Assembly (NCBI GenBank): GCA_965228125.1
Contig: OZ245791.1
Span: forward strand, 257,596-321,595
Direction of reading: 5' to 3'
Origin: Victivallales bacterium
GTDB lineage: Bacteria; Verrucomicrobiota; Lentisphaeria; Victivallales; GWF2-38-69
Length of the DNA stretch: 64,000 bases
In this document: piece by piece, positions 20,561-64,000 of the stretch
Numbering within the stretch: the first letter of the stretch is position 1
How the letters are laid out: every line of letters starts with the position of its first letter
Notes under the pieces: generated by a model
The model's database searches: none
What the model was told of the DNA's origin: nothing
What the model saw: the letters and a program-made list of their open reading frames with translations, nothing else
Translations under genes and position numbers: made by a program

Positions 20561-20584
20561 GTAACAGGCACATATTATTAAAAA

Positions 20585-20605: not shown

Positions 20606-20681
20606 TTGATTGAAATGGTTCTTCATTGCTGTAAAATAATCGACAAATGATGACACTACTGTAAAGAGAGGAAAATAACAT

Positions 20682-21875: not shown

Positions 21876-21891
21876 CATGTTAAAAGGATTT

Positions 21892-21939
21892 GAGCCTGTA
21901 AATGAGCCTCTAAATGACACTGTAAATGAGCCCGTATAT
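21892..21939 (+). repeat. Four tandem imperfect 12-bp repeats (GAGCCTGTAAAT GAGCCTCTAAAT GACACTGTAAAT GAGCCCGTATAT)
   Basis: Read directly. Starts 17 nt after the integrase stop codon and is non-coding in all frames. Confidence 0.7.
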
Positions 21940-22012
21940 TTAGAATTACTACAGTGAATTAAACTTGAATCAACTTAGTAGCCGACAAAATGCATATTGG
22001 TGGCTTTTTTTC

Positions 22013-45585: not shown

Positions 45586-45589
45586 TTGT

Positions 45590-46237: not shown

Positions 46238-46251
46238 TTCTTATTCCTTCG

Positions 46252-48223: not shown

Positions 48224-48237
48224 ATGTAATTTCCTTT

Positions 48238-49281: not shown

Positions 49282-49969
49282 GCGGGCTTGTAGCCAGGGA
49301 ATATTTTATGACAGCAAGCGGAAGCCTGAGGTTATTACCGAAATCAGGATTTTTCTGCATTAATAAGTTTAAAACAAAATTCATACCTTCCTGAAAAGGT
49401 TGTCCCCTGTATGTACCGTTTCTTATTAGCTGCCCTTTTACCTGGCATATTACCTGCCTGTCAGTTGTTCTTATTGCCTTTATAGACTTTATTTCAGCTT
49501 TCTGATGTATCAGGCGTTTTGAGAATCTGTCTGAATCTTTACTTAGCTCCTGTTTTATCTTCTCAATTGCACTATTGGAAAAAGTCTGGCTGAGAAGTTC
49601 GGCATTATCCAAACCATTAGGATTCCTGTTGAGAAAAGCTATGGCCGCAAGTTCAGCTATGTATTCGTGCATTTTTAATGCTTTTTGCATCCCAATAACA
49701 GGGTCAATATGAAAGTCTCCGGATGGATCCATAATAACAATATTTTCTTTATTTTTTGTGGAAAAGTATGTCATAAGGATCGGCTGGATTATCAGCCCTG
49801 CTAGCATTACGGAACAGCAAAACATCCAGAATCTTGCAGCCTTCATATTATTAGCAAAGAGCAAGGCAGGATTGAACTTTCTGATTATATCTATCCTATT
49901 TTTTTCTTTGGGTTTTAAATCCGTATCAGGATCCTTTTTTGCCTTCTTTTTTAAAAAAGTAAATTTCAT
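49262..49969 (-). CDS. VirB8/TrbF-like protein (positional assignment)
   Basis: 235 aa. Basic N-tail, a single TM helix (FWMFCCSVMLAGLIIQPILM), then a ~170-aa globular domain. Confidence 0.4.
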   Translation of the reverse strand: MKFTFLKKKAKKDPDTDLKPKEKNRIDIIRKFNPALLFANNMKAARFWMFCCSVMLAGLIIQPILMTYFSTKNKENIVIMDPSGDFHIDPVIGMQKALKMHEYIAELAAIAFLNRNPNGLDNAELLSQTFSNSAIEKIKQELSKDSDRFSKRLIHQKAEIKSIKAIRTTDRQVICQVKGQLIRNGTYRGQPFQEGMNFVLNLLMQKNPDFGNNLRLPLAVIKYSLATSPLDNNKA

Positions 49970-49974
49970 TATTT

Positions 49975-51033
49975 TTATTTATTTCCTTTATCTGCTGTGA
50001 ATGGTTTAACCGGATTGCCCCTTAAATCTAAGTTTGGTTTTCTGCTTCCTGTAGATGCGAATGTATTAGTTCCGGAACCATGTAATGTATTCCTGACATA
50101 ATTGCTAATTCCACTCGCAGCGTTACCTGCGGCATTAGTGATATTTTTCTGAAGATTAAAGCCGCCCATAGCTACGGCTTTTTGCAAAGCAGTCGAACCA
50201 GCCCCCATGACAGCTGTCTTTGTAACGGTGTTTAATACCGCCTGTGTTGGATCAGCTCCATTAATCAGCTTCATTACGATTATCGGACCAAGCATATAAA
50301 AAAGAACGGTGCTTATAAGGAAGAATAAAGCTGTGACAATCGAACCAAAGATCGTAAGAGGAATGGCTCCAGATATAACAGAACTCCCGGCAACAAATGT
50401 AGCTGAAGCTGTTCCTGCTGCCGCCCCTCCAAATGTAATAAGCCCTGCAATAAGATCCCATGACTGAAACATCATGAGATCAGCAATGTTAAGGCCGATT
50501 ATCCACATCATTACGCCAATTGAGGTGATAAGAAACTTAGCTCCGATTGGCCGTGTATCTTCAGGCTTGAGAAATGCTATCATCAATGGAGATAGAGCTA
50601 TAAGAACATACTCAAGACATCTCTGCATACTCAATAGAAACTTGCGCAAAATTCTTGACATCCCGAATCCAAGGTTATAAAAAAACTTAGATATTTTGGC
50701 CGTAAAATTGAATGTAGAGTTTTCTCCCTCAATTGAAGCTTTGCTCCATGTATCCATTGCCCTGTCTACCTGTACAGTGGCCTCTTTGGAAGCGTCATAT
50801 ACGGCATCTGTTCCTTTTAGAAGAAGAGGAGGATAACCCATGATCAATGCTGTAATCATGAAGGTTCCAACAATATTTTTCATCGTGTGCAAAGATGAAT
50901 TGACAGTATAGTTTTTTACCTGCCATAGCCATCCGAAGAGGATTATGATAAAAGCTATAGGCAACAACACATTTCTGATTTTTAAGGCAAAATCAAGCCC
51001 ATTGAAATCCATATTATTCTCCTGAATTACCAA
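49975..51033 (-). CDS. VirB6/TrbL-like polytopic membrane protein
   Basis: 352 aa with at least six hydrophobic helices and a Gly/Ala/Ser-rich tail. Follows the TrbJ-like gene, as in Trb operons. Confidence 0.55.
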   Translation of the reverse strand: MVIQENNMDFNGLDFALKIRNVLLPIAFIIILFGWLWQVKNYTVNSSLHTMKNIVGTFMITALIMGYPPLLLKGTDAVYDASKEATVQVDRAMDTWSKASIEGENSTFNFTAKISKFFYNLGFGMSRILRKFLLSMQRCLEYVLIALSPLMIAFLKPEDTRPIGAKFLITSIGVMMWIIGLNIADLMMFQSWDLIAGLITFGGAAAGTASATFVAGSSVISGAIPLTIFGSIVTALFFLISTVLFYMLGPIIVMKLINGADPTQAVLNTVTKTAVMGAGSTALQKAVAMGGFNLQKNITNAAGNAASGISNYVRNTLHGSGTNTFASTGSRKPNLDLRGNPVKPFTADKGNK

Positions 51034-51926
51034 AGATTCATATCGTTTCTGGCTAATGCTTTATCTTCCTGTTCCCGTAGAGAGTTATAAGCCTCTTCAT
51101 TGGTCAGATATTTAGAATTTTCTCTGTTCTGAGTCTCTTGATACGCATAGTTATTTTCTTCCAGATAATTGCGTACCGAACTGTAGATTTTCTCCCTGTT
51201 CATTAAGACTTGAAGATTCCTGTATGAATTTTCCTCCTGATCCTGAATCTGATTAAGACTTTGTTTGACAAGATCCATCCCTTTAGCATAGGCAAGTCTC
51301 TTGTTCTCTGTATCGGCATTGTCATAACAATCCTGGAGTCTTTCGAGCTCTTTCTGCAAGGTTTGTTTTTTTTCTATGTTTTCTTTTATTAAGGTGTCAT
51401 AGTCATAATACGAAGTAGCAAGTTCCTGCAGATTTTCATAATGCTGTTTGGTATTATCTCCAGTGAATCTGTAAGTAGCGTTATCTACATGTCCGTAAGC
51501 TCTTTCGAAGTTCTTCCAAAGGCTCTGGTCAGTTACAATATCTTCCGGGTTCTGATAGTAGCGATTACTGTAATAGTCATATCGCCTGACAGTTCTTTTT
51601 GTATTTGCAAGAATGCCTATTAGTTCCTGAGGATCGCCTTTGAAATCCTTGATTGTATTGATCAGGCTGTTTCGTTCTATATCGTTTTTATATATGTCCT
51701 GAAGCTTATTGAATCGGTCAATGGCATTTTCGTAGAGTTTAATGCTTTGGCTATATGCTCTTAAAGCCTCTTGTGCTCTGTCTATGCCTTCGACAATATC
51801 GTTTGTTGTCTGTGCCGAAAGCAATGAATGCGTCCCTACATCAACCACAGGAAATGCAAATATTTCACAGCATCCTAAAGTTAATATAATTACTGTAATT
51901 AATGTGCATGTAATATATTTTTTCAT
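51027..51926 (-). CDS. VirB5/TrbJ-like protein
   Basis: Signal peptide, then FPVVDVGTHSLLSAQTTNDIVEGIDRAQEAL, which resembles the TrbJ N-terminal motif. Helical, coiled-coil-like remainder. Confidence 0.45.
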   Translation of the reverse strand: MKKYITCTLITVIILTLGCCEIFAFPVVDVGTHSLLSAQTTNDIVEGIDRAQEALRAYSQSIKLYENAIDRFNKLQDIYKNDIERNSLINTIKDFKGDPQELIGILANTKRTVRRYDYYSNRYYQNPEDIVTDQSLWKNFERAYGHVDNATYRFTGDNTKQHYENLQELATSYYDYDTLIKENIEKKQTLQKELERLQDCYDNADTENKRLAYAKGMDLVKQSLNQIQDQEENSYRNLQVLMNREKIYSSVRNYLEENNYAYQETQNRENSKYLTNEEAYNSLREQEDKALARNDMNLW

Positions 51927-52195
51927 ACATCGATTGTCCTTACTGTTATGGTATGCGGAACGAATTTTACTCCGTCCACATCTGTTGGAGATTGAATTTT
52001 GTAATACTTGATGTTGTAGTTTTTATCATCGCTTTTTTTCTGCTGGTTCTGAATTATCCAGTACTGTCGTTTGACTGTATCACCCATTCCGAGATTATAG
52101 GCATCCCTGATTTCATCAGTGGACGAACAAGCTGTAATGGAGACAAGAGAAACTATTAGAGAAGAAAAGGATAATATCCTGCTTATATTGGACAT
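51923..52195 (-). CDS. Small lipoprotein (VirB7-like role possible)
   Basis: 90 aa, lipobox VSITAC. Confidence 0.4.
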   Translation of the reverse strand: MSNISRILSFSSLIVSLVSITACSSTDEIRDAYNLGMGDTVKRQYWIIQNQQKKSDDKNYNIKYYKIQSPTDVDGVKFVPHTITVRTIDV

Positions 52196-52222
52196 TTGGA
52201 TACCCTTCTATTTACTTAATTA

Positions 52223-54949
52223 TCAGGCTATAGCAATATTTCTGGAATATCTTTTTATTGCTTCGACAAGATTAGGTTCTTTTTTTAGCTGCCTTGAACG
52301 AATATCAAATAATTCGGCGTTCGAACTGCTCACATAAAGCATTTCAGGACAGCATATGTTTCTGACCGTTCCGTATTCCGGAACCGGATAACTGTCAAAA
52401 TGGTAAGTAAATGAAGCATATTTATCCAATGACTCATTATCAGCAGGGCTTTTATATTCCCTTATAATATTTTTTGCTCTTTCTGAAATAGTTATATCCT
52501 TGCTTAGATCATCAAGATCACTTCCAAGCAGTTGTTTCAAAATAAAGAACTGTTTGGAATTTCCCATTATAATCGGGCGAATGGTATCGTTTTTGAACAT
52601 CGCATATTGCTGAACTATCGTCAGAACAAAAGTATTAAGTTTTCTCATCTGGGCATAAGCTTCTGATATGATTTCTGTTCCTCCGGGAATATTCAGAAGT
52701 TTGCCTGCCTCTTCAAAGACAATTCTCTTTCTGCACTTTCTGGGCAGTGAGATTATATGATTTCTGATCTGATTACTTATGAGAAATACTACGATCTCTT
52801 TGAGTTGTTTATCTGCTGAAGAAAGTCTGCCAAGTTCAAAGTGGACAATTTTTCTATCAAACCTGACATTTGTAAATCCATCAAATAGACAACCATGTTT
52901 GCCATTGTAGCACCAATCTTTTATCTGCTGAGCGATGCTGCCAATTTCTTTATCAGATCCGAATTCAAAAGAGGACATTCTTATAAGCTCATACAGTTCT
53001 GAATGCACGGGATACTCGTTATTATTGAACCAGGCAAAAGCAACATTTTTAATACTCTCTTCATCGCTTACCATCAGCTTCGAAATATCATCCTCTGAGA
53101 TACTGTTTAATATCTCCCGGGCTATACTTTCTGGATCATTCCTGATGTCTCTGAATTCCACCCATGCTTCAATGAAAGAAGATCCTTCAGGCATTTCTTT
53201 TGTTTTGTATTTATTTACTGCAAGAACAGTCTTTGCAATGTCAGGGATCATATCCTGATGAGACTCTTTCCAGTCATTGTATTTGTCCTCATAAAGCATG
53301 TTTATATGCTCCGTAATAATTGATGTGCGCCTTTTCATAAGGCTTTCGTCTGTTGAGTGACCGCACATCATGGCAACCAGTCCTGATGCCGATGAAATAT
53401 GCTGCGGAGTTATAGGAAGCCCTCCAGTATCAAGATAGTTGATTATATAAGTCGAGTTAGGATTAAAGATCACAGGTGCTTCTCCATAAGCCCTGGTCAT
53501 CACTCCATAGGAAAGACCATCTTCGATGATGCAGCTAAAATCATAAAAACATTCAGTCTGAGAAAGAAGATCAATAATTGTCGCTGATTTTCCTGCCCCG
53601 GTAGACCCAAATACGGCAGAGTGCTGAGGCGAATTAGCTTTAAAGGTTTTAACTCCAATTATGTTGTACAGATCCCCGTCATATAGAGCTTCGGCATTTT
53701 CAAGCAATCCGGTATATGTAGAACTAAAAGGAATCATATCGGTAAGTTTGGGATCATCCTCTTCGATAGCATATCCTTCATCAGAATATTCACTGAATGT
53801 CCATCCAGGCCATGTCATGTAAAACAAATTTTTAGCTGTTGTGCAGTTAGGGATTTCCCAATACTTTGAGCCGTTCATCAGATTGATCTGACTCTTTATT
53901 ATTGATGCGTTGTTTATCAGCTGTTCTGTATTACTTGCCCAAAGCCTTATTATTACATCTGCTTTAAAGGGAATCTTTTCTCCTGATGAAATGTTATAGA
54001 GTCTGTCATGTGCTTTATCTATACTGGCTTCCAGGCTTGCTTTTCTTTCCGCAGCCATATCGCCTTTGAGTCTTTCAATGAGTCTTTCGGTCTCATCGAT
54101 TTTCACTTCGAGTTGTATCGGATAGATATTTACAGTGATGGAATAATTGATGATAGGCAATGATGTCAATTGATGCATTATTCCTGGATAAGTTGTCTCA
54201 GGCATTCTTTTTATCAGGATAATATCGTGATAATATTCATCCATGAAAAAGGCAAAATCATTGTTGATGTTTCTCTTATTATTTCCCTTGAATCCACTGA
54301 ACCAGCAATTGTCCTGTATTGTTGAATCAACTTCAAAAAGAGTTAATGGATCAAATTCCATATCTCTGTCTGAAAAAGAAGGATTTAAGAATTTTACCCA
54401 ATGCAGAAAATGGTCCTCATCAGTCATAGCCGAGACTTTTGTTGAACCATTAGAGAGGATGGCCTGAAGTTCATTAAATTTGCGATTAAAAAATAGCTCA
54501 TAGTTCTTTAGCAGGTCTGTGTAGAAATCCTCCAGTTCATCATCAGTAAGATTATTAGGCACATGTTCTTTTATTTTTTTAGTGATGTATATATACAGAT
54601 TTTCTCTTCTTAATTCTCTATTTAACATCATCTTCCAGTATCTGTTGAACCTTTCTTCCCGGACAAACTTAGTCCATTCATTTTTTGCTGTTTTTTCAGT
54701 TTCCGCTCTGTATAAAAGCAGTTCTCGTTGATAGTCAGAATCTACTCCCCATTGGAATTGAACTCTTGTATCATGCTCTATGGTTCGAAGAAATGTGTTC
54801 AATCTATGATGAATTTCGTTTAATGTCATATTAAATGACTGACGTGAGTCGCAGGTATTTATCTTGAAACCTTTTGACACATATCCTCTAGTATCAAGAT
54901 CACCGAATACTATCATATTATTTACAAACCATCCATTTGGTTGTCTCAT
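52223..54949 (-). CDS. virB4: VirB4/TrbE-family T4SS ATPase
   Basis: 908 aa. Walker A FGSTGAGKSA and Walker B-like KRIVFEEAGK. Size and position are typical. Confidence 0.85.
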   Translation of the reverse strand: MRQPNGWFVNNMIVFGDLDTRGYVSKGFKINTCDSRQSFNMTLNEIHHRLNTFLRTIEHDTRVQFQWGVDSDYQRELLLYRAETEKTAKNEWTKFVREERFNRYWKMMLNRELRRENLYIYITKKIKEHVPNNLTDDELEDFYTDLLKNYELFFNRKFNELQAILSNGSTKVSAMTDEDHFLHWVKFLNPSFSDRDMEFDPLTLFEVDSTIQDNCWFSGFKGNNKRNINNDFAFFMDEYYHDIILIKRMPETTYPGIMHQLTSLPIINYSITVNIYPIQLEVKIDETERLIERLKGDMAAERKASLEASIDKAHDRLYNISSGEKIPFKADVIIRLWASNTEQLINNASIIKSQINLMNGSKYWEIPNCTTAKNLFYMTWPGWTFSEYSDEGYAIEEDDPKLTDMIPFSSTYTGLLENAEALYDGDLYNIIGVKTFKANSPQHSAVFGSTGAGKSATIIDLLSQTECFYDFSCIIEDGLSYGVMTRAYGEAPVIFNPNSTYIINYLDTGGLPITPQHISSASGLVAMMCGHSTDESLMKRRTSIITEHINMLYEDKYNDWKESHQDMIPDIAKTVLAVNKYKTKEMPEGSSFIEAWVEFRDIRNDPESIAREILNSISEDDISKLMVSDEESIKNVAFAWFNNNEYPVHSELYELIRMSSFEFGSDKEIGSIAQQIKDWCYNGKHGCLFDGFTNVRFDRKIVHFELGRLSSADKQLKEIVVFLISNQIRNHIISLPRKCRKRIVFEEAGKLLNIPGGTEIISEAYAQMRKLNTFVLTIVQQYAMFKNDTIRPIIMGNSKQFFILKQLLGSDLDDLSKDITISERAKNIIREYKSPADNESLDKYASFTYHFDSYPVPEYGTVRNICCPEMLYVSSSNAELFDIRSRQLKKEPNLVEAIKRYSRNIAIA

Positions 54950-54951
54950 AA

Positions 54952-55296
54952 TTAATTACTCCTTGTAGAAATATATGGATTCCGTTTTTGCTGTTTTGGA
55001 TGCGGATTAATCGTGTCTCCTCTCATAAGCAGGTCTATTAAATCCTTCTGATATGCAGGCGGTTTCCCTATCCTGAATATTTTCAGGTAAACCATTACTA
55101 GAAGTAGAGGCATGATACTTACTGTTATTGCATTTATCAGCGGAAGCTTTATAAAACCAATTAGCAGTATCAGTAAGAACATAGTACTAAGCACTCCGGC
55201 TAGAAGTACAATAAAAAGATTGCCTTCAAGTCCGAAAGCCACGCCTTGTGATACCTTCATTGCGCTTGATGTCGATATTTTAAGCTCTTCATCCAT
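54952..55296 (-). CDS. VirB3-like small membrane protein
   Basis: 114 aa with two adjacent TM helices. Immediately upstream of virB4. Confidence 0.5.
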   Translation of the reverse strand: MDEELKISTSSAMKVSQGVAFGLEGNLFIVLLAGVLSTMFLLILLIGFIKLPLINAITVSIMPLLLVMVYLKIFRIGKPPAYQKDLIDLLMRGDTINPHPKQQKRNPYISTRSN

Positions 55297-55324
55297 TTTT
55301 CATCTGCCTGTTTATTCGTATATG

Positions 55325-55645
55325 TTATTGAAAATCGAAGTTGGTGGCCTGGACAGCATCGCCCATACCCATGATAGTAAATATTATTCCGACTATAAGT
55401 ATTGAAGCAGGAATCCAGAGCCCAGCTATCATGGCATTATAGGCATCACTGTCACCTTTCTTTTTTGCTTGAACGCCATGCCAGATAACTATCAGACACC
55501 ATGGAACTGAAACCACATACATAATTCCCTGTAATGTTCCGATCCCTTCTTTCAGAGTGGTTCCTTCGTCTCCAGCAAAGATGAAGTTAGAGATAAAAAA
55601 CATAGCTATAGTTACATACCATCTGTACAATCTTTTTATTAACAT
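55325..55645 (-). CDS. VirB2/TrbC-like pilin candidate
   Basis: 106 aa. Signal-like N-terminus plus two hydrophobic helices separated by a basic loop (QAKKKGD). Confidence 0.45.
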   Translation of the reverse strand: MLIKRLYRWYVTIAMFFISNFIFAGDEGTTLKEGIGTLQGIMYVVSVPWCLIVIWHGVQAKKKGDSDAYNAMIAGLWIPASILIVGIIFTIMGMGDAVQATNFDFQ

Positions 55646-55663
55646 TTTTACATTCCTTTCAGT

Positions 55664-56569
55664 TTAATTATTGATGATCATTATCTTGTTATTTCTAAGG
55701 TCGGCCTGAATCATTCCGTCAGCCAGAAAGCCATTAAGCAATCTGTTTGAAACAGCTGTCTGCACGGTAGTTTCTATACAATTTCGCAAAGGTCTTGCTC
55801 CCATGTTACGGTCAATACCATTTCGTATTACATAATTAAGGAGAGTGCTGTCGTATGAGATGTTCTGCCCAAGAAGTTTTATGCGGTTGATTTCGGAATT
55901 AAGCATACATTGCGCAATTTCTTTTTGGGTGTCATATTCGAGCTTCTTAAATACGCAGATATTCGATATTCTGGCTACAAATTCAGGTCTTAGGACAGAT
56001 TTAAGTTCGAGCATTATAGCTTTCTTTACTCTTCCATAAGTGAGGTACTTTGAATCCTTTATTCTTCCTGAACCAATATTGGATGTAAAAACAATATAGA
56101 AGTTTGAAAGATTATATTTCGCTCCTCTGGCAAGAGTGACTGTGGCCGTATCAAGAATCTGTAAAAACAGATCCAGAATCCTTTTATCCGCTTTTTCCAT
56201 TTCATCAAAGAGAAGAACACCCTCATCATGTTTTTTCAGGACTTCCTCAAGTCTTCCAATGTGTCCAGATTCATCGCCCCTGAATTCCTTGATACTGTCA
56301 AAGTGCATGAATTCAGACATATCAAATCTGTGAAGTCTTCCTTTACCGAATAAATAATCGCTGAATGTCAGAGTAATTTCGGTTTTCCCTACTCCTGTCG
56401 GCCCTAGGAAAAGGAATGATCCTTTTGGCCTGTCTTTGGACTTTAATCCAAACTCTCCATTTTGTAGCACTTGTACTATTTCAGGTATTACATGATTCTG
56501 TCCTTTGATTTTTAATTTGAGCGTAGTTTCCAGTAGTTTTAATTTGCCTGCCATTGATAAATCAATCAT
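55664..56569 (-). CDS. Stand-alone Clp/Hsp100 D2-type AAA+ ATPase (AAA_2 + ClpB_D2-small-like)
   Basis: 301 aa. LKIKGQNHVIPEI..., Walker A FLGPTGVGKTE, Walker B VLLFDEMEKA, sensor region RPEFVARI and GARPLRNCIE, as in ClpA/B/V second nucleotide-binding domains. No N-domain, D1 or middle domain. Confidence 0.8.
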   Translation of the reverse strand: MIDLSMAGKLKLLETTLKLKIKGQNHVIPEIVQVLQNGEFGLKSKDRPKGSFLFLGPTGVGKTEITLTFSDYLFGKGRLHRFDMSEFMHFDSIKEFRGDESGHIGRLEEVLKKHDEGVLLFDEMEKADKRILDLFLQILDTATVTLARGAKYNLSNFYIVFTSNIGSGRIKDSKYLTYGRVKKAIMLELKSVLRPEFVARISNICVFKKLEYDTQKEIAQCMLNSEINRIKLLGQNISYDSTLLNYVIRNGIDRNMGARPLRNCIETTVQTAVSNRLLNGFLADGMIQADLRNNKIMIINN

Positions 56570-57275: not shown

Positions 57276-57327
57276 TTCATTACATAAATTAGGATTATTT
57301 GCAAACATGTAATGATTCATTACATAA
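57276..57327. promoter_or_regulatory. Operator-like repeats: TTCATTACATAA (57276..57287) and a 19-bp palindrome ATGTAATGA-T-TCATTACAT (57307..57325) containing a second TTCATTACATAA copy
   Basis: Read directly, in the divergent region between the T4SS operon and the XRE-PAS gene, just upstream of the probable start ATG 57336. Confidence 0.55.
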
Positions 57328-59141
57328 GAGGGAGTATGGAATTTTATTTTGAAAAATTTAAAACTATCAGAGAGCAAAAAAATATTGCTGTAAAAGAAAT
57401 ATCTATTGCACTCAATAAACATAGAGTAACTGTCTGGGCATGGGAAAGCGGCAAGCAAAAACCTTGTCTTTCAGACATAAGGGAATTAGCTAAGATTTTA
57501 CATGTTGATATATCTGAGATCTCAGATATTAAAACAGGTCTAACAGATGATAGCGATTCTTCGAATATTGCAGATAATATCAGCGCCCCTCTTTCAATTG
57601 AAGACAGAATTTATTTACAAGGCATTGAGCATGAACTTCTGGCTTTAAGGAAAAAGGTTAGTTATCTGCAAAGAGAAAAAAAGGAACTCCAAAGCATTGC
57701 CAACAACATTCAGACCTTGATATATAGGAAGGATTCCAGTCTTAAATTTGTCTTTGCTAATAAAGCTTTTCTTGAAACTCTTAACCTCTCTACTAACAAA
57801 CTTGTAGGAACTAACAACTCCAGTTTGTTTTTAGGAGAAGAAATGAGCCTTGTTCATTCCTTGGAGGTGCGGATTCTTAAAGGCGAAAGAATTACAAATC
57901 ATGAGATTATAATTCCTGGCACAAGAAGACAACGAAAGGGCTATTTTTCAGGTAATCCTATATATGATAATAATGGAATCATATCAGGAATCGCCGTTTC
58001 TATAGAGGATATCACCGACAAATCTATAGCCATAGCAAGATATAAGCAGCTCGAAGATGCAGTTAATTTATCTCAGGATATTCTCTGGATTAAAGATATC
58101 AGGAACGAAAATAGTTATTCCTTCATCAGCAGTTCGATAGATAGGATCACAGGTTATAAAATCAAGCATTTTAATAACAATGTGAGATTCTGGATTGATA
58201 CCGTTGTTCATCCTGATTCTAAAAGGCATGTTCTGGAGTTTTACAAGAAGAGAAACTGGGAAAAACCAGTTGATTATAAAATACTAACTGCCAATGGGGA
58301 AATTAAATATCTCCGGGAAAAGTGCTATTCTGAAAATGGGATGCAGTTTGGTGTAATTGAAGATAGAACAAGCAAAATGGAAGCTGAAAAATATCAGTTA
58401 CTGCTTCTTGATATTATACACAAAGTTCCCTATGTCATATGGCTGTCAAGCGATTACGGCAAGAAGGTTGACATGATTACAGATACATATAAACCTTATC
58501 TGGATTCTAATTCAAAGTTTGTCCTCAACAGCCAGGAAATGTATGAAAAATTTATTCATCCGGAAGACACTCAAAAATACATTGACTGGAAAGAGTCGAT
58601 TAGCGACTCTAAATGGTGGAATAACAAGTCTGCAAAGACCATCAAAACCTCTCTTAAGTACAAGTTATTACTGAATGGAAAGAGTGTCTGGGTGGAAGAG
58701 CAGATTTTTTCAGATCCCATGTTAAGGAAAAAAGGCATCAGATATGGCATTCTGAGAGATATTACAGAAGAAATCCAGAATTCAACAACCTTAAGACTTT
58801 TGAAAGATGTCATTAATAAAGTCGATGACCTTATATGGGTTTGTACACCGCCGCCTAATGCCAGATATTTGTATATAAGTAATGCTATAGAGAAAATATG
58901 GGGAAGATCAGTCGAGGAATTTAAAGATGATGCAAAGAGATGGCTGGAATTTATTCATCCTGATGATAGAGATACTGAAAAAGAAGTTATTGAAAAGGAT
59001 AAATTTCCAATGCATAGAACCTACAGAATTATTCGTCCTGACGGCAAAACAAGAAAACTGCAAAGCTCCAGCTTCAGGGATATAGATGAAAACGGAAATA
59101 TAGTTGATTTTGGAGTAATCAGAGATATTACAGACAGGTAG
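57312..59141 (+). CDS. XRE-family HTH regulator fused to about four PAS domains
   Basis: N-terminal HTH_3 (IREQKNIAVKEISIALNKHRVTVWAWESGKQKPCLSDIRELAKILHVDISEI). Repeated PAS endings follow (AVSIEDITDK, GVIEDRTSK, GILRDITEE, GVIRDITDR). The likely true start is ATG 57336 behind AAGAGGGAG. Confidence 0.8.
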   Translation: MIHYIRGSMEFYFEKFKTIREQKNIAVKEISIALNKHRVTVWAWESGKQKPCLSDIRELAKILHVDISEISDIKTGLTDDSDSSNIADNISAPLSIEDRIYLQGIEHELLALRKKVSYLQREKKELQSIANNIQTLIYRKDSSLKFVFANKAFLETLNLSTNKLVGTNNSSLFLGEEMSLVHSLEVRILKGERITNHEIIIPGTRRQRKGYFSGNPIYDNNGIISGIAVSIEDITDKSIAIARYKQLEDAVNLSQDILWIKDIRNENSYSFISSSIDRITGYKIKHFNNNVRFWIDTVVHPDSKRHVLEFYKKRNWEKPVDYKILTANGEIKYLREKCYSENGMQFGVIEDRTSKMEAEKYQLLLLDIIHKVPYVIWLSSDYGKKVDMITDTYKPYLDSNSKFVLNSQEMYEKFIHPEDTQKYIDWKESISDSKWWNNKSAKTIKTSLKYKLLLNGKSVWVEEQIFSDPMLRKKGIRYGILRDITEEIQNSTTLRLLKDVINKVDDLIWVCTPPPNARYLYISNAIEKIWGRSVEEFKDDAKRWLEFIHPDDRDTEKEVIEKDKFPMHRTYRIIRPDGKTRKLQSSSFRDIDENGNIVDFGVIRDITDR

Positions 59142-59143
59142 TT

Positions 59144-59683
59144 ATGAAATTTGTTAATAAAGATTTATGCCATAAAATATGTAAAAAGCCTGAACGGATA
59201 GTCTGGGTCGTAACAAACTATAAGAAACTCAATATCTGCCCGATTGGCTGGAAGATGTTGACATCCAAAGAACCGCCTATGTTTGCCGTTAGTGTCTATA
59301 ACAAACATTATACACATAAGGCTATTTCCGAAACAGGGGAATTTGTTGTTTCGTGGCTTGGAAAGAATCTGGCAGAAGAAACTTATTTCTGCGGGACTAA
59401 CTCCGGAAATAATATCGACAAAATGAGTTTATTACCGAATCTAAAATTTGGCAAACCGGAAATTGTATCCGTTCCGATTATTGAAAATGCCGTTGCCAAT
59501 TATGAATGCAGACTGGCTCATAAACTCATTACAGGTGATCATACGATCTTTGTCGGAGAGATTTTGACTGTCTGGTCAACAGATAATCCGGAGAAGATAC
59601 TCTGTTCAATTGATGATTCAACGGGCTATGAAAAAGTGCTCGAGAAAGGCAGATTTAAGTTTGGGATTGTAGGCAATATCTAA
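59144..59683 (+). CDS. Flavin reductase-like domain protein
   Basis: 179 aa. The pattern PPMFAVSV...GEFVVSW...GDHTIFVGEI is typical of the Flavin_Reduct fold. Starts 2 nt after the XRE-PAS stop. Confidence 0.7.
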   Translation: MKFVNKDLCHKICKKPERIVWVVTNYKKLNICPIGWKMLTSKEPPMFAVSVYNKHYTHKAISETGEFVVSWLGKNLAEETYFCGTNSGNNIDKMSLLPNLKFGKPEIVSVPIIENAVANYECRLAHKLITGDHTIFVGEILTVWSTDNPEKILCSIDDSTGYEKVLEKGRFKFGIVGNI

Positions 59684-59685: not shown

Positions 59686-61626
59686 TCATGTTTTATTACT
59701 TAGGTATTTCTGCAGTTTATTCTGCTTGTTAATGATGTCAATAAAGGATTTATTTCTAGCTTCGGCATCAGCAATTATTGTCGAAGCACAAATAACATAA
59801 ATAAAAGCGTTTATTTTTTCATAAAACCTATAGTACATCGGCCTATCGGTAGAAAATAAAGCTTGATATCCATCTTCTAATAACAATGTAGAAAAATCGT
59901 CATCTATATCAGTAACTAAAAATGCCCATACTTCTTTAATATTATTTTTCGATTTAAATGCTTTTACATATTCTCGTAATTGCACTAGCCCTGCAAATTT
60001 CTTTCTGGCTGGTTTACTGGAATAGTCAAATGGCTTTATTTCAACAACAACAGACTTTATGTCGCTACAGGCCGTATTTGGTTCTCGTTGAAAGAACAAA
60101 GATATATCAGGTTTATCTCCATCTATATCTGTTCCTGCCTCTAAGTTAATATTTTTTAGAATACTTTTTATTGTTTTATCACTTGCTGCATAAGAGTAAC
60201 TTATAAAACGATCATCTAAAAGCCACAAGTTATTCTTGCCTATGCAATAATAATTATCATCAGTATTTTTAGGCATGAATAAATTGTGAATGAATTTTTC
60301 AACCTTTTCTTTTTTGGTATGCATAGTTTTCAAACGATCAATAATAATGACTCTGTCTTGAATATATGAAACCAATTCATTTTGTGTCAATGCTATGGCT
60401 TCCTGTAATTCTGTATCAGAATAACTATCATGGCCAATATTAGAAATAAGGCTTTCTTTGGCTAAATCGAATTTTCTTTTAGCTTTATCAATAATTTGTT
60501 TTTTGTCAATAAAACCAGCGATATCAATGTCATCATCATCTATGTATTCAATAAGATAAGGCCTTTCGTCTTGAATTGATGATAATTGTCCTTTATTAAT
60601 TTTAATGGCCTCAGGAATTTCATTTTTTATTATATTTGATATTAAGGGCTTCAAACTATTATTTATTATTTCCCAAGAAATGGGTAAATAAGCATCTGTC
60701 TTCTTGGGCATTATCGTAAATTCGTTTCTATCATTGGCTACATTCTCATCAAGATATTTCGATTCAAGCAAAAAATATCCTGAGTAGCCTTCCGGAATTG
60801 AAATCTTAAAGTCTTGCTCGGAAAATGAGGAAACTGTCCTTTTGTTAGCACAATAGAATGAATGAAATAAACCAGTTTTTTTCTCTAGCTGATACGTAAA
60901 AGTGAATTTATAAGTTTCTCCATCTGAAGTTGGAATGCTGAAAGAATCATTCTTAAAATCAGGAATGTCAGAATTTGAAATAGTTTCACATTTCCCGGTT
61001 GCAACATCTATGAATTCAATTTTGATATTTTTACCATTTTCCTTATAAAAGTAAAGAGTTGGTATCAGGCTACTTAATATATCTTCTTTAATTTTTACTA
61101 AGTCCAAAGACAATCTTTTTTCGGCAAATTTCCATTTAGTATAATAATCATTAGTTATACCTTTTAATTCCAAGGTAGTTCTATTCTCTTCTAAAGAAGA
61201 ATCATCTAAATTTTCTTTTAACGGTTCAATATTATCTAAAGAAAAATTCAAAGGAAAAGTAACCTTATACTTATCTTTGGCTAAGTAGCTTACATAGGAT
61301 ACACTTTCGAATAATTTTAAAAATAATAGCCGTCCTACACCCTTGCAGCCTAATTCTATTTTATGTGCAGTGCGGTAGTCTTTAAAAGATTTTATATTTT
61401 CATCTGTGAACCCTTCACCATTATCGATAACCTTAATTTCATCTATTTTCCTTTCATCTATCTCTCCATTATCATCTTTCAACACAGGTTGATAAGAATA
61501 AAGTTCGCATTTAATAGAGAATGCATTAGCCTGAACAGAATTAGAAATTGCCTCTAATATTATATGTCGTTGCGTAATTTTGTTGCTTATATCTTCTTTT
61601 ACTATTCTTTGAATATTTGTACTCAT
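59686..61626 (-). CDS. GHKL (HATPase_c_3/MORC-like) ATPase with C-terminal PD-(D/E)xK nuclease-like module
   Basis: 646 aa. N-box EAISNSVQANA, G1 box VIDNGEGF, G2 box GCKGVGRL. The C-terminus EKFIHNLFMP...NLWLLDDRF...KPDISLFF...VVVEIKP gives E...D...ExK. Confidence 0.65.
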   Translation of the reverse strand: MSTNIQRIVKEDISNKITQRHIILEAISNSVQANAFSIKCELYSYQPVLKDDNGEIDERKIDEIKVIDNGEGFTDENIKSFKDYRTAHKIELGCKGVGRLLFLKLFESVSYVSYLAKDKYKVTFPLNFSLDNIEPLKENLDDSSLEENRTTLELKGITNDYYTKWKFAEKRLSLDLVKIKEDILSSLIPTLYFYKENGKNIKIEFIDVATGKCETISNSDIPDFKNDSFSIPTSDGETYKFTFTYQLEKKTGLFHSFYCANKRTVSSFSEQDFKISIPEGYSGYFLLESKYLDENVANDRNEFTIMPKKTDAYLPISWEIINNSLKPLISNIIKNEIPEAIKINKGQLSSIQDERPYLIEYIDDDDIDIAGFIDKKQIIDKAKRKFDLAKESLISNIGHDSYSDTELQEAIALTQNELVSYIQDRVIIIDRLKTMHTKKEKVEKFIHNLFMPKNTDDNYYCIGKNNLWLLDDRFISYSYAASDKTIKSILKNINLEAGTDIDGDKPDISLFFQREPNTACSDIKSVVVEIKPFDYSSKPARKKFAGLVQLREYVKAFKSKNNIKEVWAFLVTDIDDDFSTLLLEDGYQALFSTDRPMYYRFYEKINAFIYVICASTIIADAEARNKSFIDIINKQNKLQKYLSNKT

Positions 61627-61650
61627 ATATATTGCCCGTCCCGTCTTTTA

Positions 61651-64000
61651 TTAGGCTTCTAAAACTTCGTGGATGGATTTTGCATCTTTAAAGTTAACTC
61701 CCAAAGCGTCAAAATGAGCTTTACCGCAATCAACTTTTTTGTTTTCAGTTTCACGTCTCTTTTCACGATCAAGAGTGCTCTTTGTCTCCCGTACCAAGTA
61801 CAGTTTGTGAGAATCTTCTACCACAACCGCCCAGTCCGGATTGTAATCTCCCAATGGCGTAGCAACTGTAAACCAACGAGGCAATTTACAAAAGAATTTA
61901 ACTTTCTCATCCTGATCAAGAAGTTTCGCAATTTCTTCTTCTACTCCACTATCATAAGCAATGAAATTATATGGAGTCCTATTATCAGTGCTTTTAACTT
62001 CATAAAGTCTGCTTAGGTATTCCTCAACTTCTCTTTCTTCAAAGAGACGCATCTCATATGATTGTCCAACAATAGGTTCATATTTTATTCCATCGATTAT
62101 CAATTCATGCAGAGCTCTATTTATAAGCTTTGCTGTTTCAGTCATAAACACTTGAGGATTTATAGCAAACTCTTTTATCCGATTTGATGATCTAAGGATT
62201 TTAACAATGGTATTTCTGGTTAATTCGGTTTCTCTTTGCAGGAAAGCCAATATGTCAGGAAGAGGCTGCTCATTACTCACTATATGGGTTCTATTGCCTG
62301 TAATCCTGCCCCCCTCAAGCCCTGATTCTTTTATTTCTAAATCTCTTTTTGTTATCTCTATTCTGGCAGTTCTAATTTCCGCCATTTTATTTATTTTATC
62401 TGTTGCTGACTCTACAAGCTTTTTAGAATCAAATTCAACAGAATAACGTGTTTTCCTGCTGATCTTATCCCACAAGATTTTAAAATCTGGGTTTAGCTCA
62501 ACTCTCTTATTATAAGTTACCTTTTCTCTCTTCCTTGCATTTTTTATGATGTCTCTTGGCATGAACTTTCTCATACGCCCTATAACAGCTTCTTCCAAGC
62601 CTGAGTATTTTTCAGGAAGCATGAATTTAAAATCAAGCTTATCCGGTTGGAAGGTATTCGTAAAATCACCTTTTGCATCGATAAGCCCTTTCTCTAGAAC
62701 AAAGTCCCATATTTCTTTTGATTCTTCCTGTGATAAGTAGTTCTCTCCTGTAGGGCTTAAAAGCGGAGTAAACGCAATTTTAGAAACTCTGCCAAACTTG
62801 AAGTTCCCATCCGGGTCTATAGCATTTTCAATATCAGTCTGCAAACCCTTGGCAAAGTTTTCAAAAGTTTCATTTGCTATAACAGTAAGCCTATTTATCT
62901 GTTCATCATACACTCTGTCTCCATTATTATTTACCGGAAGACGAAGCCCGCGTCCAATTGTCTGCCTGCGCTCTCTGTCTGTTCCCATTTCTCTTAGAGT
63001 GCAAATTTGAAACACATTAGGATTGTCCCATCCTTCTTTTAGGGCCGAATGACTGAATATAAAGCGTAAAGGTTCCTCTTCTGAAAGCAGCCTTTCCTTG
63101 TCTTTCATTATAAGTTCATAGGTTTCATCATCTTTCTGCGTGCTTCCTGACGTATCAAGTAAATCAACAATTTTACCCTTCTTTTTGTCAACAGAAAAAT
63201 AACCGTCATGAACTTCATCAGCACTGTAAGATAGCAATCCATTATACATAGGTTTTTGGCTGGTTTTATTATAAATTTCCTCAAACCATTGAGCTATTTT
63301 TTCTTTTACAGGTAGCCCTTCTTCGTCATAAGATCTGTAACTCTTTACATGGTCTATAAAAAACAGAGACAATACTTTTATTCCCTTGCCCTTGAGTTTC
63401 TTTTCTTTGGCAAAATGTGCTTCGATAGTTTGCTCTAGCTGGCTCTTTATCCGCTCATCTCCCATACCACCTGATTCCTGGTACAGCTCAATTATCCTGT
63501 TGTTCTGAAATTCTATATATTCATTGCCAGGTTCAGCATTAATATTTGTAACAAGATAACCTTCATAATCGGAACGTTTTGTTTGGCTGGAAATATCAGT
63601 ACCATGTTTAATTTTTATCTGCTTTTCTTTTGTGCCGTTTTCCGAATCATCAAAAATTGTTACCTTGGCCATAGGAGTTTTTGAATTTTTCGGATAATAA
63701 ACAGAATCAAGTCTTATAAAAGTCTGGTTGTAGTCGCTTGTTCCTGAAGCATCTATTACTTCAATTTGTTTGACAAGCCTCAAATCATAAGCCTTGATAG
63801 GGTCTAACTGATAAATCAGATTATAAGGATTTATATGGGTAGCAGAGTATCTCAAACAAAACAAAGGATTAAGGTTCTTTATAGCCTTTTGGGATTTTTC
63901 AGTATTATCAACGCTCTGAGGTTCGTCTATGATTAAAACAGGATTTGTTGACTGCACATACTCAATCGGGCGTCTTCCAGACATCTTGTCCTGTTCCTGA
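61651..64000 (-). CDS. res: Type III restriction Res-like SF2 helicase with C-terminal PD-(D/E)xK endonuclease domain (N-terminus beyond the window end)
   Basis: The frame stays open to base 64000; the track starts it at an internal Met. Motif II LIIDEPQ, motif III YSATH, motifs V/VI SALKEGWDNPNVF...QTIGRGLRLP, nuclease NPDWAVVVED...LVRETK. Confidence 0.8.
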   Translation of the reverse strand, partial: QEQDKMSGRRPIEYVQSTNPVLIIDEPQSVDNTEKSQKAIKNLNPLFCLRYSATHINPYNLIYQLDPIKAYDLRLVKQIEVIDASGTSDYNQTFIRLDSVYYPKNSKTPMAKVTIFDDSENGTKEKQIKIKHGTDISSQTKRSDYEGYLVTNINAEPGNEYIEFQNNRIIELYQESGGMGDERIKSQLEQTIEAHFAKEKKLKGKGIKVLSLFFIDHVKSYRSYDEEGLPVKEKIAQWFEEIYNKTSQKPMYNGLLSYSADEVHDGYFSVDKKKGKIVDLLDTSGSTQKDDETYELIMKDKERLLSEEEPLRFIFSHSALKEGWDNPNVFQICTLREMGTDRERRQTIGRGLRLPVNNNGDRVYDEQINRLTVIANETFENFAKGLQTDIENAIDPDGNFKFGRVSKIAFTPLLSPTGENYLSQEESKEIWDFVLEKGLIDAKGDFTNTFQPDKLDFKFMLPEKYSGLEEAVIGRMRKFMPRDIIKNARKREKVTYNKRVELNPDFKILWDKISRKTRYSVEFDSKKLVESATDKINKMAEIRTARIEITKRDLEIKESGLEGGRITGNRTHIVSNEQPLPDILAFLQRETELTRNTIVKILRSSNRIKEFAINPQVFMTETAKLINRALHELIIDGIKYEPIVGQSYEMRLFEEREVEEYLSRLYEVKSTDNRTPYNFIAYDSGVEEEIAKLLDQDEKVKFFCKLPRWFTVATPLGDYNPDWAVVVEDSHKLYLVRETKSTLDREKRRETENKKVDCGKAHFDALGVNFKDAKSIHEVLEA

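What the first reader, a model, noticed from the sequence alone, without database searches (positions are those of the whole stretch)
59686..64000. Res-type helicase-nuclease co-transcribed with a GHKL ATPase that carries its own PD-(D/E)xK module: candidate unclassified defence pair
Seen in the sequence:
- Two minus-strand genes are separated by only 24 nt.
- The upstream gene (61651..>64000) has SF2 helicase motifs (DEPQ, SAT, GWDNPNVF, QTIGRGLR) and a C-terminal D...ETK nuclease core.
- The downstream 646-aa gene has Bergerat-fold boxes (EAISNSVQANA, DNGEGF, GCKGVGRL).
- Its last ~200 aa read EKFIHNLFMP...NLWLLDDRF...KPDISLFF...VVVEIKP. An acidic helix followed by D and ExK is an arrangement that reminds me of DUF4263/Shedu-type nuclease domains.

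Established: COG3587-type Res subunits normally pair with a Mod methyltransferase. Comparative genomics has linked prokaryotic MORC-like GHKL ATPases to restriction-modification loci.

Inference: the locus combines two NTPases with two nucleases. It may be a Type III R-M with an unusual GHKL-nuclease accessory, or a methylase-independent system. Whether a mod gene exists cannot be seen, because it would lie beyond base 64000.
Basis: partly seen in the sequence, partly recalled or inferred. Interest (0 to 1): 0.7.

Follow-up and report, generated by a model that had tools for sequence, protein, structure and literature searches.

The report
Type III restriction gene beside GHKL-Shedu nuclease
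The two genes are real, but they are two already-described phage-defence systems sitting side by side, an ordinary Type III restriction enzyme and a single-gene "Shedu" nuclease with a GHKL ATPase head, rather than a new two-gene system.

Summary
Two minus-strand genes lie 24 nt apart, and every quoted motif is present.

The upstream gene is a conventional Type III restriction subunit (PADLOC REase_III, E 2.5e-221; Pfam RE_endonuc, E 8e-35). In 59 of 60 loci carrying its close relatives, a Mod methyltransferase lies upstream on the same strand. None of 39 such loci has a GHKL gene downstream.

The 646-aa protein has a GHKL ATPase domain, an S5/transducer-like middle domain and a C-terminal PD-(D/E)xK nuclease. 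This architecture is already described three times:
- as paraMORC3 (Iyer, Abhiman and Aravind 2008);
- as GHKL-type "Type 1D" Shedu (Gu et al.);
- as VcSduA of Vibrio cholerae, shown in 2025 to defend against phage as a single gene.

Homology to VcSduA is direct: hhalign probability 99.7 %, E 3.9e-26. A 53 %-identical relative is on the published VcSduA hit list.

Across 79 genomes, homologues have no constant neighbour. About a quarter sit in Type I, IIG or III restriction-modification loci, which is also a published pattern.

Verdict: a new member of a known kind, and low interest. PADLOC-DB 2023 and Pfam SduA_C do not recognise the protein, which explains why it looked unclassified.

The parts
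61651..64000 (-). 3' part of a Type III restriction subunit gene (res). About 190 N-terminal codons lie beyond base 64000. It carries SF2 helicase motifs II (DEPQ), III (SAT) and VI (QTIGRGLR).
   Evidence: PADLOC REase_III PDLC03647, E 2.5e-221, matches model positions 195-970 of 989. NCBIfam type III R-M endonuclease, E 7.5e-73. Translation.
61678..61980 (-). C-terminal PD-(D/E)xK endonuclease domain of Res (NPDW ... VRETK).
   Evidence: Pfam PF19778 RE_endonuc, E 8e-35, residues 674-774 of the 782-aa fragment.
61627..61650 (-). 24-nt spacer between the res stop codon and the start codon of the Shedu gene. It holds no terminator-like or strong promoter-like site, so read-through transcription is likely (inferred, not shown).
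59686..61626 (-). Complete gene for a 646-aa GHKL-type Shedu protein (VcSduA / paraMORC3 family).
61132..61626 (-). GHKL (Bergerat-fold) ATPase domain, about aa 1-165. Motif I is E25/N29, motif II is D68xG70xG72, and motif III is G93xK95G96xG98R99.
   Evidence: Pfam HATPase_c_3 at residues 21-140. The motif residues are invariant. Foldseek matches MutL, PMS1, GyrB, TopoVI-B, SMCHD1 and HtpG at E 3e-10 to 1e-7.
60691..61131 (-). Alpha/beta middle domain, about aa 166-312, resembling the S5/transducer domain. It holds the family-specific motifs CANxR (C259, R263) and YLDxxVxxxRNxF (R300).
   Evidence: Foldseek alignments of 290-515 columns extend past the GHKL domain into the MutL LN40, GyrB 43K and TopoVI-B transducer regions. 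These motifs also align with VcSduA.
60316..60690 (-). Helical linker, about aa 313-437, made of long helices.
   Evidence: DSSP on the AlphaFold2 model gives helices 318-336, 340-354, 375-395 and 404-437.
59689..60315 (-). C-terminal PD-(D/E)xK nuclease domain, aa 438-646: E443 ... D471 ... P506-D507 ... E529-x-K531 ... Q549xxxY553 (the RecB-like QxxxY helix).
   Evidence: These residues are invariant in 35 sequences. The domain model (pLDDT 83.7) has the alpha-beta-beta-beta-beta-alpha-beta core, with D507 and ExK on adjacent strands. This domain aligns with the nuclease domain of the P. aeruginosa clade that is on the VcSduA list.

Best explanation
Two independent, already-described anti-phage systems lie head to tail and are probably transcribed together.

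(1) Type III restriction-modification system. Only res is visible. mod is inferred to lie just beyond base 64000. By established knowledge of the EcoP15I class, Mod methylates one strand of an asymmetric site. Res is an ATP-dependent SF2 motor/switch. Its C-terminal PD-(D/E)xK domain cuts unmethylated invading DNA.

(2) A single-gene Shedu system of the GHKL type (paraMORC3, Shedu Type 1D, VcSduA-like). The N-terminal GHKL ATPase and its S5/transducer-like middle domain are expected to dimerise on ATP binding and form a clamp. This clamp would gate the C-terminal PD-(D/E)xK nuclease, which degrades phage DNA directly rather than killing the host.

Shown here: domain identities, conservation of catalytic residues, homology to VcSduA, and the absence of a conserved partner gene.
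Taken from the literature: VcSduA alone protects E. coli and V. cholerae, and the E27A and K557A mutants are dead. Those residues correspond to E25 and K531 in the window protein.
Inferred: the ATP-gated clamp mechanism, co-transcription with res, and the presence of mod.
For: Res:
- Searches give the profile matches.
- mod lies upstream on the same strand in 59 of 60 loci carrying relatives that are 48-87 % identical.

646-aa protein, structure and sequence:
- HATPase_c_3 scores above the Pfam cut-off.
- The full-length AlphaFold2 model (pLDDT 79) matches MutL/PMS1 N-terminal domains, SMCHD1, GyrB 43K and TopoVI-B over 290-515 columns, E 3e-10 to 1e-7.
- E25, N29, D68, G70, G72, G96, G98, R99, E443, D471, D507, E529, K531 and Q549 are invariant.

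646-aa protein, homology to VcSduA:
- hhalign of the family profile against the first 399 aa of VcSduA (AWB73059.1): probability 99.7 %, E 3.9e-26, 340 columns.
- BLASTP: 29 % identity over 261 aa, E 3e-13.
- P0046 (Carboxylicivirga, 53 % identical to the window protein) is hit 540 in the published list of VcSduA HMM hits.
- The window clade aligns end to end, nuclease included, with the P. aeruginosa 666-aa clade that is also on that list: probability 99.9 %, E 2.2e-34, 581 columns.

Literature:
- VcSduA is a stand-alone system and is equated with paraMORC3 and Shedu Type I-D (PMC12137116).
- paraMORC3 is defined as GHKL + S5 + RecB-like E-D-ExK nuclease, found in Proteobacteria and Bacteroidetes, either R-M-linked or solitary (PMC2292703).
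- Shedu genes occur inside Type I-IV R-M loci in 602 of 5,499 cases (PMC10441436).

No obligate partner:
- The largest neighbour cluster occurs in 8 of 79 loci.
- 0 of 39 loci with Res relatives have a GHKL gene downstream.
Against: - The window protein does not hit Pfam SduA_C (DUF4263) or the PADLOC SduA model. Only 10 of 35 relatives give sub-threshold SduA_C hits, at 13-15 bits against a cut-off of 27.
- The isolated nuclease-domain model found no significant PDB match, and no solved Shedu structure (best E 0.05). Assignment to 'Shedu' therefore rests on homology to VcSduA and on the literature, not on a direct match to canonical SduA.
- Only the first 399 residues of VcSduA were available. 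The nuclease-domain homology to VcSduA is indirect, through the P. aeruginosa clade.
- Identity to VcSduA is low (about 20-29 %), and no member of the window's own clade has been tested experimentally.
- The 24-nt spacing, and the recurrence of the gene directly after Type III res in five other genomes (gaps of 21-111 nt), leave room for functional coupling.
- mod was not seen.
Confidence: 0.8

Rival explanations
1. Composite system. The GHKL-nuclease is a true accessory subunit of this Type III R-M system, as in the paraMORC model of Iyer et al. It would loop or clamp DNA between the recognition and cleavage sites, or act on the DNA ends that Res produces. The three genes would then work as one machine.
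For: - The gap is 24 nt with no terminator.
- The same position, directly after a Type III res gene, recurs in L004, L008, L011, L015 and L033.
- Homologues are embedded with overlapping reading frames between hsdM and hsdS in L048, L061 and L077.
- Iyer et al. proposed exactly this role.
[quoted passage not shown] 2025) appears in the reference list seen (title only, paper not read). On that basis, restriction cuts could feed such a nuclease.
Against: - 0 of 39 close Res relatives have the gene.
- The Res proteins next to homologues belong to a different Res subfamily (PDLC03650, not PDLC03647).
- About three quarters of homologues have no R-M neighbour.
- VcSduA works alone in E. coli and in its native host.
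- Iyer et al. themselves note solitary paraMORC3 genes.
Confidence: 0.1
2. Mobile-element cargo aimed at other mobile DNA. The gene pair belongs to the neighbouring conjugative (type IV secretion) element. It would mainly serve exclusion of, or competition against, plasmids and integrative elements rather than phage defence.
For: - Type IV secretion genes lie at 44-55 kb: a TrwB/VirD4-like coupling protein, a TrbI/VirB10-like protein and a VirB4-like ATPase.
- Gu et al. report a strong association of Shedu with mobile elements.
Against: - The boundaries of the element were not mapped.
- A PAS regulator and a flavin reductase on the opposite strand separate the secretion genes from the defence genes.
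- The one tested family member acts against phages.
Confidence: 0.06
3. Housekeeping DNA-repair or chaperone-like GHKL protein (MutL-like or Hsp90-like) with no role in defence.
For: The best structural matches are MutL/PMS N-terminal domains and HtpG.
Against: - The distribution is patchy across phyla at about 50 % identity.
- Neighbourhoods are variable and rich in defence genes: Type I, IIG and III R-M, GmrSD, AbiC and HEC-01.
- The protein carries a fused PD-(D/E)xK nuclease, not the MutL C-terminal domain.
- It is homologous to a validated defence protein.
Confidence: 0.02

Closest known systems
VcSduA of Vibrio cholerae A1552 (A1552VC_00276, AWB73059.1). Adams et al., Nat Microbiol 2025 (PMC12137116).
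   Same: - Same architecture: N-terminal GHKL ATPase, middle clamp-like domain, C-terminal PD-(D/E)xK nuclease.
- Similar size (673 aa against 646 aa).
- The tested catalytic residues have counterparts: E27 corresponds to E25, and K557 to K531.
- Homology was measured here: probability 99.7 %, E 3.9e-26.
- A close relative of the window protein is on the authors' own hit list.
- VcSduA is also encoded next to another restriction-type system (GrwAB, which is GmrSD-like), but acts independently of it.
   Different: - Identity is only about 20-29 % over the part that could be compared.
- The window protein belongs to a separate clade, found mostly in Bacteroidota and metagenomes, whose members are about 50 % identical to it.
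- Its neighbour is a Type III res gene rather than a Type IV system.
- It is untested.
paraMORC3 family. Iyer, Abhiman and Aravind, Biol Direct 2008 (PMC2292703).
   Same: - GHKL + S5 + a C-terminal RecB-like restriction-endonuclease-fold domain with E-D-ExK motifs.
- Prevalent in Proteobacteria and Bacteroidetes.
- Found in R-M operons with SF2 helicases (Type III Res, HKD-SNF2) or as solitary genes.
- All of these points match.
   Different: The family was defined only in silico. No member identifiers were available here for a one-to-one check. The equivalence to the family in the window rests on matching features and on the statement in PMC12137116.
Canonical Shedu, SduA (DUF4263 / Pfam SduA_C, PF14082). 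Bacillus cereus and E. coli SduA; classification of Gu et al. (PMC10441436).
   Same: - A single-gene defence system with a C-terminal PD-(D/E)xK nuclease regulated by a variable N-terminal domain.
- The GHKL (HATPase_c_3) plus 'N24' middle-domain class is listed as Type 1D.
- Frequently located inside R-M loci.
   Different: - The window protein does not reach the SduA_C or PADLOC SduA models.
- Its nuclease-domain model does not retrieve solved Shedu structures.
- Adams et al. report that a VcSduA tetramer model was poorly supported and a dimer was favoured.
- The sensor here is an ATPase.
Type III R-M restriction subunit (Res of the EcoP15I / EcoP1I class).
   Same: - SF2 helicase motifs plus a C-terminal PD-(D/E)xK domain (RE_endonuc).
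- Strong matches to Type III models.
- Relatives are preceded by mod.
   Different: - Truncated by the window edge.
- The NCBIfam equivalog score (246 bits) is below that model's cut-off (564), so it belongs to a different subfamily from the model's seed sequences.

Membership tests
GHKL-type Shedu (VcSduA / Shedu Type 1D / paraMORC3) | N-terminal Bergerat-fold GHKL ATPase with intact nucleotide-binding motifs | tested here: met
   - HATPase_c_3 scores 27.7 bits against a cut-off of 25.
- 34 of 35 relatives hit the same model.
- E25, N29, D68, G70, G72, G96, G98 and R99 are invariant.
- Foldseek matches MutL, GyrB and TopoVI-B.
GHKL-type Shedu (VcSduA / Shedu Type 1D / paraMORC3) | S5/transducer-like ('N24') middle domain after the GHKL domain | tested here: met
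   - Structural alignments of 290-515 columns cover the GHKL plus second domain of MutL LN40, PMS1, GyrB 43K, SMCHD1 and TopoVI-B.
- TM-scores are modest (TMt 0.3-0.54), so the fold class is supported but the exact subtype is not.
GHKL-type Shedu (VcSduA / Shedu Type 1D / paraMORC3) | C-terminal PD-(D/E)xK nuclease with E-D-ExK motifs (RecB-like) | tested here: met
   - E443, D471, D507, E529, K531 and Q549 are invariant, and Y553 is mostly conserved.
- The model topology places D507 and ExK on adjacent strands, followed by the QxxxY helix.
- Relatives give weak hits to PD-(D/E)xK families: HSDR_N, VRR_NUC, Tox-REase-9 and NucS_C.
GHKL-type Shedu (VcSduA / Shedu Type 1D / paraMORC3) | Sequence homology to the experimentally validated member VcSduA | tested here: met
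   - hhalign probability 99.7 %, E 3.9e-26, over 340 columns of VcSduA residues 1-399.
- BLASTP E 3e-13.
- The relative P0046 is hit 540 of the published VcSduA model.
- Full-length profile match to another listed clade, E 2.2e-34.
- The C-terminal 274 residues of VcSduA were not available.
GHKL-type Shedu (VcSduA / Shedu Type 1D / paraMORC3) | Single-gene system with no obligate partner gene | tested here: met
   No neighbour cluster is present in more than 8 of 79 loci. 0 of 39 loci with Res relatives carry it.
GHKL-type Shedu (VcSduA / Shedu Type 1D / paraMORC3) | Confers phage resistance that depends on the motif I glutamate and the ExK lysine | not testable with these tools
   Shown for VcSduA E27A and K557A only (PMC12137116).
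Canonical Shedu nuclease domain (Pfam SduA_C / DUF4263, PF14082) | Match to the SduA_C profile at or above the gathering score | tested here: not met
   - No SduA_C hit for the window protein at E <= 1.
- 10 of 35 relatives hit only below threshold: best E 0.0078, 13-15 bits against a cut-off of 27.
- The PADLOC SduA model hits 1 of 35 at E 0.033.
Canonical Shedu nuclease domain (Pfam SduA_C / DUF4263, PF14082) | Structural similarity of the nuclease domain to solved SduA structures | tested here: inconclusive
   Foldseek of the 211-aa domain model against the PDB gave no match with E <= 0.001 and no Shedu entry in the top 50. Foldseek is weak on divergent PD-(D/E)xK cores, so this does not exclude a relationship.
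Type III restriction-modification system | Res subunit: SF2 helicase plus C-terminal PD-(D/E)xK endonuclease | tested here: met
   REase_III E 2.5e-221. RE_endonuc E 8e-35. Helicase motifs II, III and VI are visible.
Type III restriction-modification system | Adjacent mod (N6/N4 methyltransferase) gene upstream of res | not testable with these tools
   It would lie beyond base 64000, and the source contig could not be extended. Indirect evidence: 59 of 60 loci with Res relatives have a Mod homologue upstream on the same strand.
MORC proper (prokaryotic MORC of Iyer et al.) | The MORC-specific GhXhhpXXRhl motif in the S5 domain | not tested
   paraMORCs are defined as lacking this motif. It was not searched for, and the protein is not filed as a MORC.

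The most novel reading that the evidence does not exclude
The tight res-Shedu junction could reflect real cooperation. Type III cleavage, or stalled Res translocation, would create the DNA ends or structures that the GHKL-gated nuclease then processes. The locus would then be a two-layer restriction machine rather than two neighbours. The same position recurs after a Type III res gene in five genomes and inside three Type I operons, which would fit such a link.
Probability: 0.1. Interest if true: 0.55.

Novelty: new member of a known kind. Interest (0 to 1): 0.2.

Why it matters
The practical value is modest.

The window carries an intact, untested representative of a large clade of GHKL-type Shedu proteins. 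The search found 557 or more relatives, and the 120 best hits listed are about 50 % identical to it. They come mostly from Bacteroidota and uncultured bacteria.

Two widely used models, PADLOC-DB v2.0.0 and Pfam SduA_C, do not detect this clade. Automated defence annotation will therefore leave these genes as 'ATP-binding protein'.

The mechanism by which a GHKL ATPase gates a Shedu nuclease is unsolved, and no structure exists. Extra diverse members help with modelling and with choosing candidates for structural work.

The locus does not open a new class of system.

Tried and rejected
1. Extending past base 64000.
- Exact-protein look-ups for the 646-aa protein and for the flavin reductase returned only one 10,979-bp ENA contig. 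It is an inverted-duplicate (palindromic) assembly that breaks inside res.
- A contig longer than 1 Mb is indexed but was not delivered.
- The plasmid collection gave no match.

2. Sequence search of the PDB with the family profiles found only marginal GHKL hits (E >= 0.02) and no Shedu entry.

3. Foldseek of the isolated nuclease domain gave no significant match.

4. Locating VcSduA among the homologues of L079 failed. The top 120 hits were all at least 69 % identical beta- and gammaproteobacterial proteins, with none from Vibrio.

5. Literature access.
- PMC11805627, the final Gu et al. paper, is not held, so the preprint PMC10441436 was used.
- The hit table in the Nature Microbiology supplement is truncated. 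The bioRxiv supplement supplied the hit list and the first 399 residues of VcSduA.
- The supplement of the paraMORC paper holds no member lists.

6. I considered and rejected a conserved Res-GHKL operon. I also rejected MORC proper, histidine kinase and Hsp90 chaperone readings: the protein has no kinase or chaperone context and carries a fused nuclease.

Full report
**1. Observation**

The region holds two minus-strand genes.
- The first, at 59686..61626, encodes 646 aa.
- The second ends at 61651 and is still open at base 64000, with 782 codons readable.

The res stop codon (61651-61653) and the next ATG (61624-61626) are separated by exactly 24 nt. No terminator-like hairpin occurs anywhere in 59-64 kb. 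Promoter-like matches are at the level of shuffled sequence: 19 found against 19.4 expected. Co-transcription is therefore plausible but not shown.

**2. The upstream gene is an ordinary Type III Res**

Profile matches:
- PADLOC REase_III PDLC03647, E 2.5e-221, covering model positions 195-970 of 989. About 190 N-terminal residues therefore lie beyond the window.
- NCBIfam type III R-M endonuclease, E 7.5e-73.
- Pfam RE_endonuc, E 8e-35, at the C-terminus.

A scan of metagenome contigs returned 80 loci encoding relatives 48-87 % identical.
- In 59 of the 60 loci with at least 3 kb upstream, a Type III Mod homologue lies upstream on the same strand.
- In none of the 39 loci with a complete Res C-terminus and at least 2 kb downstream is there a homologue of the 646-aa protein.

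So mod almost certainly lies just beyond base 64000 (inference). The GHKL gene is not part of this Res family's conserved operon.

**3. Anatomy of the 646-aa protein**

Pfam gives HATPase_c_3 just above threshold (27.7 bits against 25, residues 21-140). PADLOC-DB v2 and NCBIfam give nothing.

The protein has more than 550 relatives. The 120 best hits listed are about 50 % identical to it over its full length. They occur in Bacteroidota, Armatimonadota, Babeliae, Planctomycetota and many metagenomes, and are annotated only as 'ATP-binding protein'.

In an alignment of 35 sequences reaching down to 19 % identity, the invariant residues fall into two sets:
- E25, N29, D68, G70, G72, G96, G98 and R99, which are Bergerat motifs I-III.
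- E443, D471, D507, E529, K531 and Q549, which form an E-D-ExK nuclease core followed by a RecB-type QxxxY helix.

An AlphaFold2 model (pLDDT 79.2) matches the following at E 3e-10 to 1e-7 over 290-515 aligned columns:
- MutL, PMS1 and PMS2 N-terminal domains;
- SMCHD1;
- GyrB 43K;
- TopoVI-B;
- HtpG.

The match therefore covers the GHKL domain plus the S5/transducer-like second domain.

A separate model of residues 436-646 (pLDDT 83.7) shows the alpha-beta-beta-beta-beta-alpha-beta PD-(D/E)xK core. However, it finds no significant PDB neighbour. No solved structure is detectable by sequence either.

**4. Neighbourhoods of homologues**

A genome scan gave 79 loci. I clustered all ORFs from these loci. 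No neighbour family is present in more than 8 loci. The recurrent contexts are all restriction-type (annotation):
- **Type III Mod-Res followed by the gene, same direction:** L004, L008, L011, L015, L033, with gaps of 21-111 nt.
- **Convergent with a Type III Res:** L046, L067, L080.
- **HKD-SNF2 helicase + Type IIG enzyme-methylase + SMC-like ATPase + the gene:** L005, L012, L013, L022, L038, and partly L017 and L019.
- **hsdM, the gene, hsdS, GmrSD or a Schlafen-like protein, hsdR:** L048, L061, L077, with overlapping reading frames.

That makes about 18 of 79 loci. The rest have unrelated neighbours. A Res of the window's own subfamily accompanies a homologue only in L046.

**5. What is already known**

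- **Iyer, Abhiman and Aravind (2008, PMC2292703)** defined paraMORC3 as GHKL + S5 + a C-terminal RecB-like restriction-endonuclease-fold domain with E-D-ExK motifs. They found it prevalent in Proteobacteria and Bacteroidetes. It occurs in R-M operons with Type III (Rad25-like) or SNF2/HKD helicases, and a subset is solitary.
- **Gu et al. (preprint PMC10441436)** list GHKL (HATPase_c_3 plus 'N24' middle domain) fusions to the Shedu nuclease as Type 1D. They report 602 of 5,499 Shedu genes inside Type I-IV R-M loci.
- **Adams et al. (2025, PMC12137116)** showed that VcSduA, with this same architecture, protects E. coli and V. cholerae as a single gene. The E27A and K557A mutants abolish protection, and protection holds at all multiplicities of infection, which indicates direct immunity. 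The authors state that such proteins were previously annotated as paraMORC3.

**6. Membership tested here**

The bioRxiv supplement of Adams et al. lists the hits of their VcSduA model, with sequences.
- Hit 540 (Carboxylicivirga SLQ26_RS11830) is identical over the visible residues to my P0046. P0046 is 53 % identical to the window protein.
- The supplement also gives the first 399 residues of VcSduA.
- The family profile aligns to those residues with hhalign probability 99.7 %, E 3.9e-26, over 340 columns. The alignment includes family-specific motifs of the middle domain.
- Pairwise BLASTP gives 29 % identity over 261 aa, E 3e-13.
- The P. aeruginosa/Burkholderia 666-aa clade is also on the published list. 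It aligns with the window clade over 581 columns, nuclease domain included (probability 99.9 %, E 2.2e-34). In L079, a member of that clade, the ExK lysine is residue 557.

Two tests went against membership of canonical Shedu:
- Pfam SduA_C and PADLOC SduA do not reach significance for the window protein, and are only sub-threshold in relatives.
- Foldseek did not retrieve Shedu structures.

I therefore file the protein in the VcSduA/paraMORC3 family. I treat its placement under 'Shedu' as the literature's classification, not as something independently verified here.

**7. Mechanism**

Most likely (0.8), these are two autonomous defence layers.
- **Type III R-M.** Mod methylates the host's recognition sites, and Res restricts unmethylated DNA.
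- **GHKL-Shedu.** ATP-driven dimerisation and clamping would license the PD-(D/E)xK nuclease to cut invading DNA. This mechanism is inferred from GHKL enzymology and from the VcSduA mutants.

The near-invariant R300, in the conserved ERxxF motif of the middle domain, is a candidate for the basic 'finger' that S5 domains supply. This is my inference and is untested.

The main rival (0.1) is real cooperation with Res, as Iyer et al. proposed. It is kept alive by the tight junction and the recurrent position after res. It is weakened by three points: 0 of 39 Res relatives carry the gene, the Res subfamily differs in the other loci, and VcSduA acts autonomously.

**8. Verdict**

The sequence reading was accurate and the Shedu hunch was correct. 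The locus is not an unclassified pair. It is a new, untested member of a known family lying next to a standard Type III res gene, in an arrangement already documented in the literature. Interest is low (0.2). One practical point remains: current PADLOC (2023) and Pfam SduA_C models miss this clade.

Noticed in passing
L001 and L081 (ENA ERZ25074342 ctg26938, 10,979 bp): The only public contig delivered for this locus is a perfect inverted duplication: PAS gene, flavin reductase, 646-aa gene, res 3' end, then the mirror image. It is almost certainly an assembly artefact that folds back inside res. It cannot be used to extend the window.
   Followed up: partly
window 44008-56569 (-): A block of conjugation / type IV secretion genes lies here:
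- TrwB/VirD4-like coupling protein, 44008-45585;
- TrbI/VirB10-like protein, 46252-47544;
- 908-aa VirB4-like ATPase, 52223-54949 (weak AAA_10 match);
- short ClpB-like AAA_2 ATPase, 55664-56569.
The defence genes therefore sit next to a probable integrative conjugative element. Its boundaries were not mapped.
   Followed up: partly
window 57312-59683 (+): A multi-PAS protein of 609 aa, whose first ~70 residues look to me like a helix-turn-helix (no profile match), is followed 2 nt later by a 179-aa flavin reductase. The reductase stop codon (59683) lies 2 nt from the stop codon of the Shedu gene (59686), so the two transcription units converge with almost no spacer.
   Followed up: no
L005, L012, L013, L022, L038 (also L017, L019): Several Bacteroidota genomes share a recurrent cassette: HKD(PLD)-SNF2 helicase (PADLOC C3a139), a Type IIG enzyme-methyltransferase, an SMC-like/AAA ATPase of about 650 aa, and then the GHKL-Shedu homologue. 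Gaps run from -20 to +7 nt in four of the five core loci (+234 nt in L038). This is the tightest conserved context found. It resembles the SNF2/HKD operons drawn by Iyer et al. in 2008. Whether it acts as one system was not examined.
   Followed up: partly
L048, L061, L077: Distant homologues (about 28 % identity) are inserted between hsdM and hsdS of Type I R-M operons with overlapping reading frames. They are followed by GmrSD (L048) or a Schlafen/AlbA_2 + HATPase_c_4 protein (L061), and then by hsdR.
   Followed up: partly
L011 5516-7303; L033 5506-7265: An AAA_21 ATPase plus DUF4276 pair (PADLOC HEC-01A/HEC-01B) is inserted between mod and res of a Type III system, upstream of the GHKL-Shedu homologue. 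This makes three defence modules in one co-directional string.
   Followed up: no
window 59686-61626, and family-wide: PADLOC-DB v2.0.0 has no model that detects this protein. Pfam SduA_C stays below threshold for the whole family. Standard defence-annotation pipelines of that vintage will therefore miss the clade.
   Followed up: yes
window 16001-22000: G+C content drops to 0.29-0.33 with positive GC skew, against about 0.37-0.41 on either side. This may be another horizontally acquired segment.
   Followed up: no
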